A model generated the notes under the pieces. It did no database searches. It worked only from the letters and a program-made list of their open reading frames with translations, and had not been told where the DNA came from. The translations under genes and the position numbers were made by a program. This document shows positions 3,459 to 11,952 of a stretch of 64,000 nucleotides of DNA, piece after piece. Position 1 is the stretch's first letter; each line of letters starts with the position of its first letter. Source of the stretch: a virus; the IMG/VR virus record IMGVR_UViG_3300045049_000234, positions 47,180 through 111,179 of that record. One strand, 5' to 3'.

Positions 3459-4504
3459 CGCGCCTCGGCCGGGATGATCAGCAGCTTGTCGCCGTCGTAC
3501 ATCTTGCGGTTCACAGACGTGGACTGCACGAAGATCGTGTACTCCGGGTTGATGTCCGGGCTCACCCGCGTGTCGATGTCCGGCAGCCCCAGGATGTCCC
3601 GCGCGCCGTCGCCGACGTACACGACGCCGGTCTTCTTCTCGTGGACGGCGATGCGCTTGGTGCGCTGGATCGTGACACGGCGCTTGAGTTCGTAGAAGGC
3701 CGCGCCGATCCGGTAGTCCATGCGCAACTGATCCACAACCCAGTCACGGATCTCCGCGTCCTCGGTCACCGTGGTCAGCGTGTAGGCGCTGCCAGGCAGC
3801 GGGGTGAGCGTGGAACGTACGGTGTCCCGGTTGACGGCGTCGATGCCGGTGGAGAAGATCGCCCGGCTGCCGCGCACGCCCTGCGCCCGGTTCGCCATGA
3901 ACCGGTCGGTGGCGGCGCGGATCGTGTTGCCGACCTCCCGCACACCGTGCGCGGACGTGGTGTCCCACACGGCGATGTTGTCGGCGGCGAACCCGAACCG
4001 CTTGGCCTCGAACACGCCCATCTGGTTCGGCACCATCACGGCCACCGTCCAGTTGTCCGGCAGTGCGCGCAGCCGCGCGGACAGGTGCGCGGAGGTGTGG
4101 ATGCGGCTGCGGTTCTCCTCGCCGTCGGTGATCACGTAGACCAGGAACGCATGGTCGCCGTAGATCTCCGGCGTCTTGGCCAGATCATCCAGCGCCGTCA
4201 TGGTCGCGTCGATCAGCGCCGTGTTGCGCTCGGCGCGGTAGTGCTCCGCGATCGAAGGCAGGCGCAGCACGTCCCGATCGTAGAACACGCATTCGGCGGC
4301 CTGTTTGACGCCGGGCACGGCCTCGTTGAACACGTAGACCGTCGCCCGCGTCTCCTGGTCCATCACAGTGGACCGTTCGGCCAGGTGGGACACCATGCCA
4401 TCCGTGACGGCCACCACGTCGCGGGCGAACCGGGACATGGACAGCGAGCCGTCCAGCACGATGGCGATGTGGTTGATGTAGCCCTGTGTGGGGTGTTTGT
4501 TCAT
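3455..4504 (-). CDS. vWA-domain protein
   Basis: IAIVLDGSLSM MIDAS, NTALIDA, VITDGEENRS. Confidence 0.85.
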   Translation of the reverse strand: MNKHPTQGYINHIAIVLDGSLSMSRFARDVVAVTDGMVSHLAERSTVMDQETRATVYVFNEAVPGVKQAAECVFYDRDVLRLPSIAEHYRAERNTALIDATMTALDDLAKTPEIYGDHAFLVYVITDGEENRSRIHTSAHLSARLRALPDNWTVAVMVPNQMGVFEAKRFGFAADNIAVWDTTSAHGVREVGNTIRAATDRFMANRAQGVRGSRAIFSTGIDAVNRDTVRSTLTPLPGSAYTLTTVTEDAEIRDWVVDQLRMDYRIGAAFYELKRRVTIQRTKRIAVHEKKTGVVYVGDGARDILGLPDIDTRVSPDINPEYTIFVQSTSVNRKMYDGDKLLIIPAEAR

Positions 4505-8571: not shown

Positions 8572-9697
8572 CATCCATGCCTTGCGCAACGATGCCGAGG
8601 CCAGCGCCGCCATGCCGGGCTCGGCCGTGCCGTGCCACGTCGTGCGGGCAACCACCGACTAGCCGGTGACCACCCGCACGACACGGAACCATGCGTTGCC
8701 AAGCCGCGCGCTGCGCTGCCGAGCCGTTACCTAGCCGGGCCAAGTACCGCCATGCGAAGCCGGACCATGCCGGGCACTGCGTAGCGCCGCCTCGCGTGCG
8801 CGCCGGGGCCTCGAACCCCGGTGACATCCGGTCGCGCGCCATCCATGCCGTGCCGAGACAGGCCGCGCGTTGCACTGCCTAGCCCGGCCGTCCACCGTCC
8901 GTGCCTTGCCGTACCTCGCCATGCGCCGCCACGCCGGACTGAGCCCAGTTCTGCCGAGCATGGGAACCTTGCCGCGCCTCGCATTGCCAAGCCGAGCGAT
9001 GCCCGGTCTGGCCACGCGTCGCCCCGCCGCGACCCCACGGCGGGGTTGTCCTTGCGTTGCCGAGCCACGCCACGCCTAACCAGGCCACGCCGCGCACAGC
9101 CGCGCCCCGACCCCAGAGCGCGGGTATCCGTGCCTTGCCCCGCGTAGTCATGCGTCACCTTGCCACACGGTGCGGCGCCAAGCCATGCATTGCCCGGCCG
9201 GGTCGTGCCGTGCGCAGCTATGCCGAGCGCAGCGCAGCCCAGGGACGGCACGCGGTGGTCCCGCGTACCAACCTTGGGTTGCGCCCTCGCCGCTCGGCCA
9301 TACCCCGCCTAGCATGGCCGAGCGGCGCCGTGCGGCGTCCATGCCTTGCCTGGCGTTGCCACGCCAGTGCCGCGCTCAGCCGAGCGATGCCGGGGCCAGC
9401 CCTGCCATCGCCTCTGCCCAGCCAAGACAGCGACACACCGGTGATGTGCCACCGCCCCGGCTGGGTCCGTGCCTCGCCGCGCGGAGCCAAACCGGGCCAA
9501 ACGTTGCCGGGTCGTGCCCCACCATGCCGCGACCCCACGACATGACGTCCATGCCTAGCCACGCCAGACCTCGCACAGCATCGCCTAGCGTCGCCAGGTC
9601 CTTGCCAAGCCGGGTCGCGCCGCGCTACGTCCAGCGTTGCCGTGCGCTGCCGCGCCGGGCGTTGCGTTGCCACGCCATCGCATCGCGAAGCCAGGCC
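8572..9697 (-). repeat. Non-coding array of 5-nt periodic (G/C/T)GY-NN repeats in discrete tracts separated by linkers/hairpins (candidate guide-RNA array)
   Basis: Example 9106-9047: GGCGC GGCTG TGCGC GGCGT GGCCT GGTTA GGCGT GGCGT GGCTC GGCAA CGCAA GGACA. There are 23 in-register pentamers at 9239-9125. All six frames give only low-complexity A/R/G/W/P peptides. Confidence 0.9.
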
Positions 9698-9700
9698 ACG

Positions 9701-10267
9701 TTACGCCGCCGCATCCTCGTCCGGTGCGATGCCCATGGCGCGCATCCGGCGTTCGATGTCAGCGAGACGGCGATCCGTCGCCTCGCTGTGGTTGCGCGTC
9801 TCCGTGCGCAGGTCGTCCAGCGTCTTCTGCATCCGGGCCGTCTTGGACGCCTGCCGCCGGTTGATCTCCATCTGATAGGCGAACGCGGTGGCGACGGTTT
9901 CGAACGCGGCGCGCACCGCCGGGCTTTCGCCGGACAGATCGACGTTGACCGCCTTCGAGTAGGCGCGCTGAAGCTGCCGACCCGCCTTGCGGCCGTGGCG
10001 CCGCGCCAGCCCGAGCTGTGCGACGGCGTCCACGACGACATAGCCGACGCCGCGTACGGCGTCCACGGCGCGCTTCTCGTCCTCCTCGAACCGCCGCGCG
10101 GCGTCCCGGAACGCGACCCGCAGCGTCTGCCGGTCGCGCACAGGGTCCAGCTCCAGCGCTTCGGCCATCTCCTCGAACGTGATCAGATCGCCGATGGCCT
10201 TGGTCCGCAGGAGGCCGTACATCACCTTCCAACGGGCGGTGTCGCCGATGGGGGCGAACGGGCTCAT
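9701..10267 (-). CDS. Putative winged-HTH plus coiled-coil protein, translationally coupled to the RAMP-like gene
   Basis: ITFEEMAEALELD...AVRGVGYVVV resembles a wHTH helix and wing; helical C-terminus; ATGA overlap at 10264-10267. Confidence 0.7.
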   Translation of the reverse strand: MSPFAPIGDTARWKVMYGLLRTKAIGDLITFEEMAEALELDPVRDRQTLRVAFRDAARRFEEDEKRAVDAVRGVGYVVVDAVAQLGLARRHGRKAGRQLQRAYSKAVNVDLSGESPAVRAAFETVATAFAYQMEINRRQASKTARMQKTLDDLRTETRNHSEATDRRLADIERRMRAMGIAPDEDAAA

Positions 10268-10848
10268 GCGTTGTCCGGGATGACGGTGACGCTGCCCGCG
10301 AACCGGCCGTACCGGGGGCGCCAGTTGCCCAGGCCGATCAGGCTCCCGGCGATGTCAACGATCTGTTCGAAGTCGCCGAGGTCGATGATCTGCGTGTCCA
10401 CGTAGATGATCGCGGAGGTGGCCCAGTCATGGAAGATCGGCCGCGTGCGGATCACGCGGGCGTTGTTGACCTTCACGGACGCCTGGTGCCGGAACGACTC
10501 GTCGGCCCACAACGCCTCCGGGTCGCGCGGACCCTTGTAGACCAGCGGATTGACGTTGGACAGGACGATGACGCCCGTCTGCACCTTGGGTCCGAGCTTG
10601 CGCTTGCGCGCGGCGTCCAGCAGCGCGCGATAGATGTTGTCGCCCGGCATGTACGGACCCTGCTCCGAGTCGTGGTACAGGCCGCCCAGGAACTCGGCGT
10701 GTGCCATTTCCGCGTAGTCGTCGTCGGTCTTGGACCGCTTGGCGCTGATCTTCTTGATGGACTTCGCGATCGGGTCCAGCGGATTGGACAGCCGCGCGTT
10801 GTGTACCAGCAACGGGCACGTGCCCGTAACATCCAACTTGATATCCAT
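10264..10848 (-). CDS. Stand-alone RAMP/Cas7-like (RRM-fold) protein, 194 aa
   Basis: Start ATG at 10848 after GAGGAACCC. N-terminal strand IKLDVTGTCPLLVHN, PYMPGDNIYRALLDAA (compare Cas7/Csm3 P.IPGSS.KG.LR), RVIRTRPIFHDW, and a C-terminal Gly-rich loop AGSLIGLGNWRPRYGRF. Confidence 0.78.
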   Translation of the reverse strand: MDIKLDVTGTCPLLVHNARLSNPLDPIAKSIKKISAKRSKTDDDYAEMAHAEFLGGLYHDSEQGPYMPGDNIYRALLDAARKRKLGPKVQTGVIVLSNVNPLVYKGPRDPEALWADESFRHQASVKVNNARVIRTRPIFHDWATSAIIYVDTQIIDLGDFEQIVDIAGSLIGLGNWRPRYGRFAGSVTVIPDNA

Positions 10849-10864
10849 GGGTTCCTCTCGATGA

Positions 10865-10975
10865 TGACCGTGCCTCGCGTTGCCAAACCATGCCGGGCGG
10901 TGCCGCGCCTGGCATCGCCGTGCCTCGCGTTGCATTGCGCCGCGACGCCAAACGCAACCGTTGCCACGCCACGCG
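10865..10975 (-). repeat. Leader tract of (G/C/T)GY-NN pentamers between promoter and RBS of the RAMP-like gene
   Basis: GGCGT CGCGG CGCAA TGCAA CGCGA GGCAC GGCGA TGCCA GGCGC GGCAC CGCCC GGCAT GGTTT GGCAA CGCGA GGCAC GGTCA (17 in register), plus a few upstream. Confidence 0.88.
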
Positions 10976-10987
10976 CTGATGTTGACC

Positions 10988-11017
10988 ACACTATCACCGG
11001 TCATGCCATAAATACAA
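10988..11017 (-). promoter_or_regulatory. Putative promoter of the RAMP/repeat locus
   Basis: TTGTAT-18 nt-TAGTGT with TGn extension, in a locally AT-rich patch. Confidence 0.55.
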
Positions 11018-11097
11018 ATCCGCAACACGCTGACCTGCGGATATCCCAAGTCTTGCCGTGCGGCGCCTGACGCTGCCGCGCATAGCCAAGCGATGCG

Positions 11098-11952
11098 TTA
11101 CTCTGCGTCGGTGTCGGGTTCCTCGACGTCTTCGACCACATCGCCGTCCACGATGTCGGCGGCGTCCGTCACTTCGGTGGCGTCGGTGCGCGGGTTGACG
11201 TCCAACCGCACGCCGCCGTCCACGGCCAGTCCGCGCACGTACTGCGTGGACCGGGGCGCCGTCTTGAGTACATCGATAAGCGTTGTTTTCAACGCCATGG
11301 CATCAAAGTGATCACGCCACGGGCCGACGATCTCGCCATTCTTGCGGGCCATCGCGAACTTGTCGCGGTGTTCCTCGCAGTCCTCGCGTGTCCACGCGGA
11401 GAACAGCGGCCGGGGACCGCCCACCAGATGAACCACCGAGTAGTAATCGGTCACCGGTCCGCGAGCGGCGCGGGGCGCCCGCGACGGGATGTGCTCGATA
11501 CGGCTGTCCGTTCCGTACCTAACGTCGAAGAAATCACTTTCGTAACGCTTGTGCGCCTCGATCGACACCACGCGGTCCGACCGGTACGCCAGGTTGATCA
11601 ATCCCGGATAGCCGATGATCAAGGTGGCTTCCATGCGCCCCTTGTTGCGCATCGGCAGCAGCCACGCCTCGCCCAGCACCGCCGGGCGCAGACCGAGCTG
11701 TGCGCACGTCATCAGGCCGCCCAGCACGGACATCGGGTCGCACTCCGCCAGGCGCGGCGTCTTGCGCAGGACCGTCATGGCGTCGCGGGCAAGCTGGACG
11801 GCGTCGTGGCCGCGCGGCATGGCCCGCTCGAAATCCGGGATCATCTTCCTGATCTCGTCGGCCAGGGACCGCCGCCCCTCGTCCGGCGTGCGCGGGGTGT
11901 TCGGCGCCAGTTCGCCGCGCTGCGTGCGCATCCGGTTCGCCAGGTCGTTCAT
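11098..11952 (-). CDS. recT: RecT-family single-strand annealing protein
   Basis: LAECDPMSVLGGLMTCAQLGLRP..LGEAWLLP, LIIGYPGLINLAYRS, GPWRDHFDAMALKT. Confidence 0.93.
   Translation of the reverse strand: MNDLANRMRTQRGELAPNTPRTPDEGRRSLADEIRKMIPDFERAMPRGHDAVQLARDAMTVLRKTPRLAECDPMSVLGGLMTCAQLGLRPAVLGEAWLLPMRNKGRMEATLIIGYPGLINLAYRSDRVVSIEAHKRYESDFFDVRYGTDSRIEHIPSRAPRAARGPVTDYYSVVHLVGGPRPLFSAWTREDCEEHRDKFAMARKNGEIVGPWRDHFDAMALKTTLIDVLKTAPRSTQYVRGLAVDGGVRLDVNPRTDATEVTDAADIVDGDVVEDVEEPDTDAE

What the first reader, a model, noticed from the sequence alone, without database searches (positions are those of the whole stretch)
10849..10975. Pentamer tract in the 5' leader directly abutting the RAMP gene's ribosome-binding site
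Seen: 17 in-register pentamers end a few nt before GAGAGGAACCC-ATG. Inference: filament assembly on its own mRNA leader would occlude the SD and give translational autoregulation; alternatively this is the first guide.
Basis: partly seen in the sequence, partly recalled or inferred. Interest (0 to 1): 0.7.

Follow-up and report, generated by a model that had tools for sequence, protein, structure and literature searches.

The report
Upstream guide RNA of phage VIPR
The five-base rhythm in front of this phage gene is real and is almost certainly the upstream guide RNA of a VIPR system, a CRISPR-like DNA silencer described in 2026; it is a new example of a known thing, and the idea that it also throttles translation of its own protein is plausible but untested.

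Summary
Observation confirmed. On the minus strand, 17 in-register pentamers (10949-10865; 19 with two weaker units from 10959) stop 5 nt before the ribosome-binding site GAGAGGA (10859-10853) and ATG (10848). This is the best-scoring tract in the 111-kb phage genome: 30, against 8.5-15 in 30 random genomes.

The "RAMP gene" (10264-10848, minus) is a Vipr protein: it matches the solved SUSP1 Vipr (PDB 36pp) at E 1e-36, and 2.6e-52 with a profile. A vap1-like gene and about 14 more pentamer units (9676-8572) follow it. This matches the VIPR type II layout published in 2026, where SUSP1 has one guide upstream of vipr and an array downstream.

The autoregulation idea is neither shown nor excluded.
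- For it: the tract has no 3' tail and lies 16 nt from the ATG, so vipr must be co-transcribed with it. Three relatives have gaps of 17-30 nt.
- Against it: other relatives have gaps of 45-157 nt, and many have no upstream guide at all.

I found no target, in the phage's own genome or elsewhere, and no RNA data exist. This scan has noted VIPR on other DNA many times (648 notes in at least 420 genomes).

The parts
11053..11107 (-). Possible degenerate upstream vrRNA unit (11 pentamers, only 4 canonical GGC). It overlaps the RecT stop codon and is followed by GACTT GGGAT.
   Evidence: Chain score 15, at the upper edge of random genomes (8.5-15). Borderline; its position inside the VIPR locus raises the prior.
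11008..11042 (-). Terminator-like hairpin (ATCCGCA, 11-nt loop, TGCGGAT; 11042-11018) followed by a T-rich run (11017-11008).
   Evidence: Read directly from the sequence. The strict terminator scan did not report it. Inference.
10988..11017 (-). Candidate promoter for the leader. The -35-like hexamer is TTGTAT (11017-11012). The extended -10 is TGATAGTGT (10996-10988). The predicted start is near 10981.
   Evidence: Read by eye, in the only AT-richer stretch of the intergenic region. The sigma-70 consensus scan found nothing on this strand. Weak inference; no RNA data.
10959..10971 (-). 13-mer TGGCGTGGCAACG at the 5' edge of the leader unit. It also occurs exactly at the starts of two downstream units (9677-9665 and 9366-9354).
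   Evidence: Three exact copies in the window, all at tract starts.
10865..10959 (-). The leader pentamer tract: 19 units, of which the core 17 (10949-10865) are in one register. Read as the upstream vrRNA (guide) of the VIPR locus. It contains a 16-nt internal direct repeat (10933-10918 and 10883-10868).
   Evidence: Its 3' end, GGCAC-GGTCA, fits the 'GGCA(N) then GG(A/T)' end signature of the downstream units.
10849..10864 (-). 16-nt spacer between the tract and the start codon. It carries the Shine-Dalgarno GAGAGGA (10859-10853). There is no structured tail.
   Evidence: The leader RNA fold is no more stable than shuffles (z = -0.35).
10264..10848 (-). vipr gene (194 aa), the Cas7-like RAMP protein of VIPR systems.
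   Evidence: PDB 36pp_D 'SUSP1 Vipr protein': E 1.1e-36 with the single sequence, 2.6e-52 with the profile. 36% identity to SUSP1 by tblastn. phrog_4652, no Pfam family. Model pLDDT 91 with Csm3/Cas7 fold hits.
9701..10267 (-). vap1-like accessory gene (188 aa). Its start overlaps the vipr stop by 4 nt.
   Evidence: BLASTP to the SUSP1 gene after vipr gives E 2e-6; to LittleE gp33, E 2e-15. ORF coordinates.
8572..9676 (-). Downstream vrRNA array of about 14 pentamer tracts (6-23 units each). Many are separated by only 1-6 nt with a phase shift; others by short hairpins.
8793..8839 (-). The one unit tail in this locus with a tRNA-like minihelix: an outer stem plus a GGTTCGAGG T-arm-like hairpin.
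   Evidence: Aligns with 15 tails from related actinobacterial and actinophage loci.

Best explanation
The tract is the upstream guide-RNA gene (vrRNA) of a type II-like VIPR system carried by a 111-kb soil actinophage.

By homology with the characterised SUSP1 system, the mechanism is as follows. The region is transcribed from a promoter just upstream. Vipr protomers coat the RNA, one per pentamer, holding the fixed GGY bases and exposing the two variable bases of each unit. Those dinucleotides read a DNA target with one base skipped between them, and binding silences a competing mobile element.

What is particular here is that this unit has no structured 3' tail and ends 16 nt before the vipr ATG. 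The guide and the vipr-vap mRNA must therefore start as one transcript.

Shown: the repeat, its statistics, the Vipr and vap homology, and the locus layout. Inferred: transcription start, RNA ends, protein binding, target.
For: - Vipr identity.
- RNA-contact residues of SUSP1 Vipr are kept: H17, K33, R138, W178 and R179 correspond to H16, K32, R136, W176 and R177 here.
- A vap1 homologue follows vipr, overlapping it by 4 nt.
- The published layout has one vrRNA upstream of vipr and an array downstream of vap, with vrRNAs of 9-16 YNNGG repeats. The minimal active construct is vrRNA1 plus the vipr coding sequence (paper 10.64898/2026.04.26.720920).
- The leader tract shares its 5' 13-mer and its 3' end signature with downstream units of the same locus.
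- Upstream tracts occur in 10 of the 12 actinobacterial relatives retrieved, and in phages LittleE and SUSP1.
- The tract scores highest in the genome.
- The RNA has no special fold of its own, as expected for a protein-coated single strand.
Against: - I found no target for the decoded guide under the 1-nt-skip rule. Searches covered the phage's own genome, IMG/VR with exact windows of 8-10 units, five relatives' genomes, and 401 sampled Actinomycetes genomes.
- Seven of the 17 units are CGC or TGC rather than GGY. The paper lists GGY>AGY among the SUSP1 motif changes tested and says that perturbing the GGY motifs abolished silencing.
- The published invariable 3' tail is absent.
- Seventeen to 19 units is slightly above the 9-16 reported for the SUSP1 and P. 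fulva clades.
- No RNA-seq run holds this DNA, so expression and RNA ends are unknown.
Confidence: 0.87

Rival explanations
1. Dual role. Besides being a guide, the Vipr filament on the tail-less leader blocks the 30S subunit at the adjacent SD. Alternatively, trimming of the guide's 3' end severs or destabilises the vipr mRNA. Either way, Vipr limits its own synthesis once guides are coated.
For: - The tract ends 5 nt from the SD and 16 nt from the ATG, inside the usual 30S footprint (general knowledge).
- There is no room for a promoter between the tract and the SD, so every vipr mRNA begins with the tract.
- One protomer binds per repeat, and pairs of adjacent protomers grip each GGY.
- Three relatives repeat the tail-less, SD-proximal layout: gaps of 17 nt (L010), 23 nt (L015) and 30 nt (L022).
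- A precedent from my own knowledge: Bacillus TRAP bound to triplet repeats overlapping the SD of trpG and trpP blocks ribosome binding.
Against: - There is no experimental or comparative signal of regulation.
- The gap is not conserved: 45-157 nt in other actinobacterial relatives, 105 nt in SUSP1, and no upstream guide in most alphaproteobacterial loci.
- SUSP1 vrRNA1+vipr expressed from one promoter yields enough complex for cryo-EM.
- About 18 protomers are needed per leader and well over 150 for the whole array. Early self-repression would therefore be costly, and the leader is among the best-matching tracts, not a low-affinity 'last filled' site.
- The papers are silent on any feedback.
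Confidence: 0.3
2. The tract is a Vipr-binding regulatory or titration site only and is not used as a DNA-targeting guide.
For: No target was found. The unit has no tail. It contains an internal 16-nt duplication and 41% non-GGY units.
Against: Downstream units of the same locus have the same share of non-GGY units (G at position 1 in 64% overall), and many are also tail-less. The discovery paper describes tail-less 'staggered' arrays (fig. S18 legend). The upstream position is a guide position in SUSP1. Failure to find targets is expected when the host and its rivals are unsampled.
Confidence: 0.08
3. The periodic sequence works as double-stranded DNA, as an operator or iteron array for the wHTH-like Vap or another DNA-binding protein, giving transcriptional control.
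For: There is a 10-bp sub-period (TRF), two 16-bp direct repeats 50 bp apart, and a central imperfect palindrome. Vap is a predicted DNA binder (paper).
Against: The same strand-specific GGY/NN rhythm fills 1.1 kb downstream and is the defining feature of vrRNAs. The strand polarity relative to vipr is kept in relatives with very different sequences. No such operator is described.
Confidence: 0.04

Closest known systems
vrRNA1 of the Escherichia phage SUSP1 VIPR locus (type II VIPR; bioRxiv 10.64898/2026.04.26.720920 and .720927; PDB 36pp)
   Same: A GGY/NN pentamer tract on the coding strand directly upstream of vipr, followed by vipr, a vap1-like gene and a downstream vrRNA array. The Vipr proteins are homologous (36% identity), with the RNA-contact residues kept.
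   Different: SUSP1 has 14 units (GGT-rich), then a conserved pseudoknot tail, and 105 nt between the tract and the ATG. Here there are 17-19 GGC-rich units, no tail and a 16-nt gap. Position 1 of the motif is relaxed (G/C/T). The G1-contacting Asp of the G-loop is Asn (N175).
Staggered (tail-less) vrRNA arrays of VIPR systems (fig. S18 legend of 10.64898/2026.04.26.720920)
   Same: Units follow each other with a 1-nt offset and no tail, as between several downstream units here. The leader unit is likewise tail-less, and its end is marked only by loss of the motif.
   Different: In the leader, the thing that follows the unit boundary is not another guide but the ribosome-binding site of vipr itself.
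Upstream vrRNAs of actinobacterial VIPR loci (Mycobacterium phage LittleE gp34 locus; prophages in Planomonospora, Mycobacterium, Dermatophilaceae)
   Same: GGC-rich tracts upstream of vipr. In L010, L015 and L022 the vipr-proximal unit is tail-less and ends 17-30 nt from the start codon.
   Different: LittleE, L016, L018 and L012 keep a tRNA-like minihelix tail and 83-157 nt before the start. Their tracts are more than 90% canonical GGY.
Cas7 backbone on crRNA in class 1 CRISPR effectors (e.g. Csm3, PDB 6ifk, 6xn3)
   Same: The fold is the same (Foldseek E about 1e-5, TM about 0.5). Protomers polymerise on a guide RNA with a thumb that breaks pairing periodically.
   Different: The period is 5 nt with three bases sequestered, rather than 6 nt with one flipped. 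There is no CRISPR repeat-spacer array, no Cas6 or Cas5, and the system is phage-borne.
TRAP-mediated translational control of trpG/trpP/ycbK in Bacillus subtilis (my own knowledge, not checked here)
   Same: A protein oligomer binds short repeats with a period of about 5 nt in an mRNA leader. Where the repeats overlap the SD, it blocks ribosome binding.
   Different: The protein fold is unrelated (an 11-mer ring). The repeats are (G/U)AG triplets. Control responds to tryptophan, not to the protein's own level. There is no guide function.

Membership tests
VIPR system (Vipr + vrRNA) | A Vipr protein: a small single-RRM RAMP homologous to SUSP1 Vipr | tested here: met
   PDB 36pp_D E 1.1e-36 (single sequence) and 2.6e-52 (profile) over residues 4-188. 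AlphaFold pLDDT 91. Foldseek best hits are Csm3/Cas7.
VIPR system (Vipr + vrRNA) | Residues that grip GGY and the skipped base (SUSP1 H17, K33, R138, D177, W178, R179) | tested here: inconclusive
   H16, K32, R136, W176 and R177 are conserved. D177 is replaced by N175 here and in the two closest homologues (P0004, P0005). The other 42 loci examined have D.
VIPR system (Vipr + vrRNA) | Tandem pentamers with a fixed GGY and a variable NN, 9-16 units, on the vipr strand | tested here: met
   There are 17-19 units. Position 2 is G and position 3 is C or T throughout. Position 1 is G in 10 of 17 units, which is a relaxed motif. A fourth paper reports VIPR clusters degenerate at one motif position.
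VIPR system (Vipr + vrRNA) | A conserved structured 3' tail after the repeat tract (pseudoknot in the SUSP1 clade) | tested here: not met
   Only 16 nt separate the tract from the ATG, and they carry the SD. No fold beyond chance. Tail-less units are, however, described for staggered arrays, so this does not exclude membership.
VIPR system (Vipr + vrRNA) | An accessory vap gene next to vipr (type II: the DNA-binding vap1) | tested here: met
   The 188-aa gene overlaps the vipr stop. BLASTP to the SUSP1 vap1 position gene gives E 2e-6; to LittleE gp33, E 2e-15.
VIPR system (Vipr + vrRNA) | The RNA is expressed at about 100 nt and co-purifies with Vipr | not testable with these tools
   No RNA run holds this DNA. 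The 14 holders are soil or rhizosphere DNA assemblies.
VIPR system (Vipr + vrRNA) | The decoded NN dinucleotides match a DNA target with a 1-nt skip, and there is no self-target | tested here: inconclusive
   No self-match above shuffled guides, for the full guide or for sub-windows, as published for other loci. No external target in IMG/VR or in 406 actinobacterial genomes.
Translational autoregulatory leader (operator overlapping or abutting the SD) | The binding site of the encoded protein lies within the ribosome footprint of its own mRNA | tested here: met
   The tract ends at -17 relative to the A of the ATG and 5 nt from the SD. That Vipr binds it is inferred from homology only.
Translational autoregulatory leader (operator overlapping or abutting the SD) | The arrangement is conserved among relatives, or protein-dependent repression has been shown | tested here: not met
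   Gaps are 17, 23, 30, 45, 51, 53, 62, 83, 86, 88, 105, 131 and 157 nt in 13 loci with upstream tracts. Most other loci have none. No repression data exist.

The most novel reading that the evidence does not exclude
In a subset of actinophage VIPR loci, the vipr-proximal guide has lost its tail and fused to the vipr ribosome-binding site. Coating or 3' trimming of the guide by Vipr would then feed back on vipr translation or mRNA stability. That would be a built-in dosage control linking effector supply to guide load, and it has not been described for VIPR.
Probability: 0.3. Interest if true: 0.5.

Novelty: new member of a known kind. Interest (0 to 1): 0.3.

Why it matters
It shows that the finding is already explained by a system published in 2026, and it adds an actinophage example with about 15 guides.

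Three details may interest people working on VIPR:
- A tail-less upstream guide sits directly against the vipr ribosome-binding site. This forces co-transcription and makes feedback testable with a simple reporter.
- The first motif base is relaxed (G/C/T), together with an Asp-to-Asn change at the residue that contacts that base.
- Related actinobacterial vrRNAs carry tRNA-like minihelix tails, which hints at processing by tRNA-maturation enzymes.

None of these changes the basic picture.

Tried and rejected
- **Chance or low complexity:** rejected.
- **Coding pentapeptide-type repeat or known RNA family:** no Rfam family and no tRNA in the region.
- **Leader riboswitch or structured attenuator:** the fold is no better than shuffles (z = -0.35).
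- **DNA-level self-targeting of the locus or its promoter:** neither the full guide nor any window of 7-12 units matches the phage's own genome better than shuffled guides.
- **External targets:** exact 10-unit windows in IMG/VR gave nothing. Three 8-unit seeds gave 56 loci, with a best full match of 28/38 in contigs of about 40% GC. I take that as chance. Five relatives' genomes and 401 sampled Actinomycetes genomes gave nothing at up to 3 mismatches. 'Not found in those searched' is all this says.
- **Close relatives for an NN-hypervariability test:** The metagenome scan gave only distant loci.
- **Expression:** no RNA holder is listed. Contigs from four soil or rhizosphere DNA runs were identical fragments with no variants in the tract.
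- **Promoter:** the strict sigma-70 scan found no promoter on the minus strand. My promoter call is by eye only.
- **The genome search 'relatives':** not available for a virus record.

Full report
**1. What is in the sequence**

The gene named in the finding is on the minus strand. Its ATG is at 10848-10846 and its stop at 10264 (194 aa). The exact string GAGAGGAACCC sits in front of the ATG.

Read on that strand, 17 pentamers run from 10949 to 10865 in a single register. Each has G at position 2 and C or T at position 3, and two free bases follow. Position 1 is G in 10 of the 17 units and C or T in the other seven. Two weaker units extend the register to 10959. Two more GGC units (10970-10961) lie one base out of phase.

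After the last unit (GGTCA) come TCATC, the Shine-Dalgarno GAGAGGA (10859-10853), ACCC and the ATG. The tract therefore ends 5 nt from the SD and 16 nt from the start codon.

A chain score for such tracts gives 30 here. That is the highest value in the whole 111,179-base genome on either strand, against maxima of 8.5-15 in 30 first-order Markov genomes. All other high-scoring tracts fall inside window 8572-11107.

**2. Surroundings**

Upstream on the same strand lie a RecE/YqaJ-type exonuclease, a DUF6205 protein and RecT. The record is a 111-kb virus genome from soil and rhizosphere metagenomes.

Directly downstream of the 194-aa gene is a 188-aa gene that overlaps its stop by 4 nt. After that comes about 1.1 kb (9676-8572) with no convincing gene but about 14 further pentamer tracts of 6-23 units. 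Many are separated by only 1-6 nt and a phase shift; others by short hairpins.

Between the RecT stop and the leader tract there are three features:
- A weak 11-unit tract (11107-11053), which is borderline by score.
- A hairpin followed by a T-rich run (11042-11008).
- An AT-richer stretch with an extended -10-like TGATAGTGT (10996-10988).

I read the last as a promoter by eye only. The consensus scan found nothing on this strand.

**3. Identity**

The 194-aa protein has no Pfam family and belongs to phrog_4652, of unknown function. It matches PDB 36pp chain D, 'SUSP1 Vipr protein', at E 1.1e-36, or 2.6e-52 with a profile of 53 homologues. The AlphaFold model (pLDDT 91.4) finds Csm3/Cas7 chains of type III and VII CRISPR effectors (E about 1e-5, TM about 0.5).

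[quoted passage not shown] According to the discovery paper (10.64898/2026.04.26.720920):
- VIPR loci carry vipr, an accessory vap gene, and vrRNAs of 9-16 YNNGG repeats followed by a 3' tail.
- In phage SUSP1, one vrRNA lies upstream of vipr and three lie downstream of the protein genes.
- The vrRNAs co-purify with Vipr.
- The NN dinucleotides read double-stranded DNA with one base skipped between them.
- The construct used as 'VIPR' throughout was vrRNA1 plus the vipr coding sequence under one inducible promoter.

The structure paper (10.64898/2026.04.26.720927) shows one protomer per repeat and names the contacts H17, K33, R138, D177, W178 and R179. Here the corresponding residues are H16, K32, R136, N175, W176 and R177.

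The 188-aa neighbour is homologous to the gene after vipr in SUSP1 (E 2e-6) and in Mycobacterium phage LittleE (E 2e-15). The window therefore holds a type II-like VIPR locus, and the tract in the finding occupies the position of SUSP1 vrRNA1.

**4. Is the leader tract a unit like the others?**

Yes, on three counts.
- Its 5' edge carries the 13-mer TGGCGTGGCAACG (10971-10959). This recurs exactly at the starts of two downstream units and nowhere else in the window.
- Its 3' end, GGCAC-GGTCA, follows the pattern seen at the ends of the downstream units: a GGCA(N) pentamer, then GG followed by A or T.
- Its share of non-canonical units (7/17) matches the locus-wide value. G at position 1 is 0.64 over 173 units.

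The free RNA has no fold beyond what its composition gives (z = -0.35). That fits a strand meant to be coated by protein.

**5. What differs from the published type**

In SUSP1 the upstream tract is followed by a pseudoknot tail, and 105 nt separate the tract from the ATG. Here no tail fits into 16 nt.

I compared 80 prophage loci from bacterial genomes and several phage loci. Upstream tracts are the rule in the actinobacterial relatives (10 of 12) and also occur in LittleE and SUSP1. Most alphaproteobacterial loci have a single vrRNA just after the vipr stop and none upstream.

Gap from the last upstream tract to the start codon:

| Locus | Gap (nt) | What fills the gap |
|---|---|---|
| this window | 16 | SD only |
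| L010 (Planomonospora) | 17 | SD only |
| L015 (Mycobacterium) | 23 | SD only |
| L022 (Dermatophilaceae MAG) | 30 | SD only |
| L009 | 45 | – |
| L014, L017, L008 | 51, 53, 62 | plain hairpin |
| L018, L016 | 83, 88 | tRNA-like tail |
| L067 | 86 | – |
| SUSP1 | 105 | pseudoknot tail |
| LittleE | 131 | tRNA-like tail |
| L012 | 157 | tRNA-like tail |

A tail-less, SD-proximal guide therefore recurs in a few relatives but is not a conserved feature. The discovery paper describes tail-less units as such, as 'staggered arrays' (fig. S18 legend).

**6. The autoregulation idea**

Three things can be said.
- With 16 nt between the tract and the ATG, no promoter can sit between them. Nothing like a -10 lies in the last units. 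Every vipr mRNA must therefore begin with the tract or with a processed end just after it.
- If Vipr binds this tract as it binds the others, the end of the filament lies within the usual ribosome footprint. Steric interference is physically reasonable. So is the variant in which 3' trimming of the guide cuts the mRNA just before the SD.
- Nothing tests this. The four papers do not mention autoregulation, feedback or a leader function. The spacing is variable among relatives. SUSP1 makes ample complex from a vrRNA1-vipr transcript. The leader is one of the best tracts in the locus rather than a weak site filled last.

I also tested DNA-level self-regulation. Neither the full guide nor any window of 7-12 units matches the phage's own genome above shuffled guides.

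I put about 0.3 on a measurable feedback effect, as an addition to the guide role and not a replacement for it.

**7. Target search**

- No exact 10-unit match in IMG/VR.
- Only chance-level extensions from three 8-unit seeds, the best being 28/38 in low-GC contigs.
- No hit at up to 3 mismatches in five relatives' genomes or in 401 sampled Actinomycetes genomes.

The host and its rival elements are probably not in these collections, so this is uninformative rather than negative. No RNA run holds the DNA.

**8. Verdict**

This scan has noted VIPR on other DNA many times (648 notes in at least 420 genomes). The preferred inference, SD occlusion, remains a reasonable and cheaply testable hypothesis without support.

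This is a new member of a known kind, with three small variations worth recording: a tail-less guide fused to the vipr ribosome-binding site, a relaxed first motif base together with D-to-N in the G-loop, and tRNA-like tails in relatives.

Noticed in passing
L006:2226-2290, 2361-2425, 3692-3745, 3821-3890; L008, L009, L012, L016, L017, L018, L005 tails; window 8793-8839 (-): The 3' tails of vrRNAs in actinobacterial and actinophage VIPR loci share a tRNA-like minihelix. It has a 5-bp outer stem whose sequence differs between units but stays paired, an ~11-nt linker containing GG, and a hairpin with the invariant T-loop-like GGTTCGAnTCC; ACGC often follows. The T-arm stem shows compensatory changes in 5 of 6 pairs. 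Thirteen of 16 single-sequence folds give the same two-stem shape. There is no Rfam hit. The VIPR papers' text does not contain 'tRNA'. This may be a processing signal for RNase P or RNase Z.
   Followed up: partly
window 10324-10326 (-), residue N175 of Vipr; tracts 8572-10959: The G-loop residue that contacts the first G of GGY in SUSP1 (D177) is Asn here and in the two closest homologues, but Asp in the other 42 loci examined. This locus also has the lowest share of G at motif position 1 (0.64, against a typical value of about 0.9). It may be a case of relaxed motif recognition. It rests on one clade only.
   Followed up: partly
window 10868-10883 and 10918-10933: The leader guide contains an exact 16-nt internal direct repeat 50 nt apart, flanking an imperfect palindrome. 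Decoded, the target would carry the same 8-nt gapped motif twice, 30 bp apart. Alternatively, the guide arose by internal duplication.
   Followed up: no
window 10959-10971, 9665-9677, 9354-9366 (-): The 13-mer TGGCGTGGCAACG occurs exactly three times, each at the start of a pentamer unit. It may be a shared 5' end or processing mark, or a trace of unit duplication.
   Followed up: partly
window 9535-9545, 9030-9040, 9108-9118 (-): The short motif (G/C)TGGGGTCG(C/G) recurs just before three downstream units (d3, d9, d8). It is part of small hairpins between units. Its function is unknown.
   Followed up: no
L005:3091-3894 (Gordonia phage Trine gp40): The annotated 'hypothetical protein' gene covers a 13-unit vrRNA tract plus a tRNA-like tail (L005:3134-3255). 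The CDS call there is probably at least partly spurious.
   Followed up: no
window 10812-10827: A perfect 16-nt palindrome (ACGGGCAC/GTGCCCGT) lies inside the first 12 codons of vipr, over the conserved G-T-x-P-L motif. Whether it is more than a by-product of the coding sequence is unknown.
   Followed up: no
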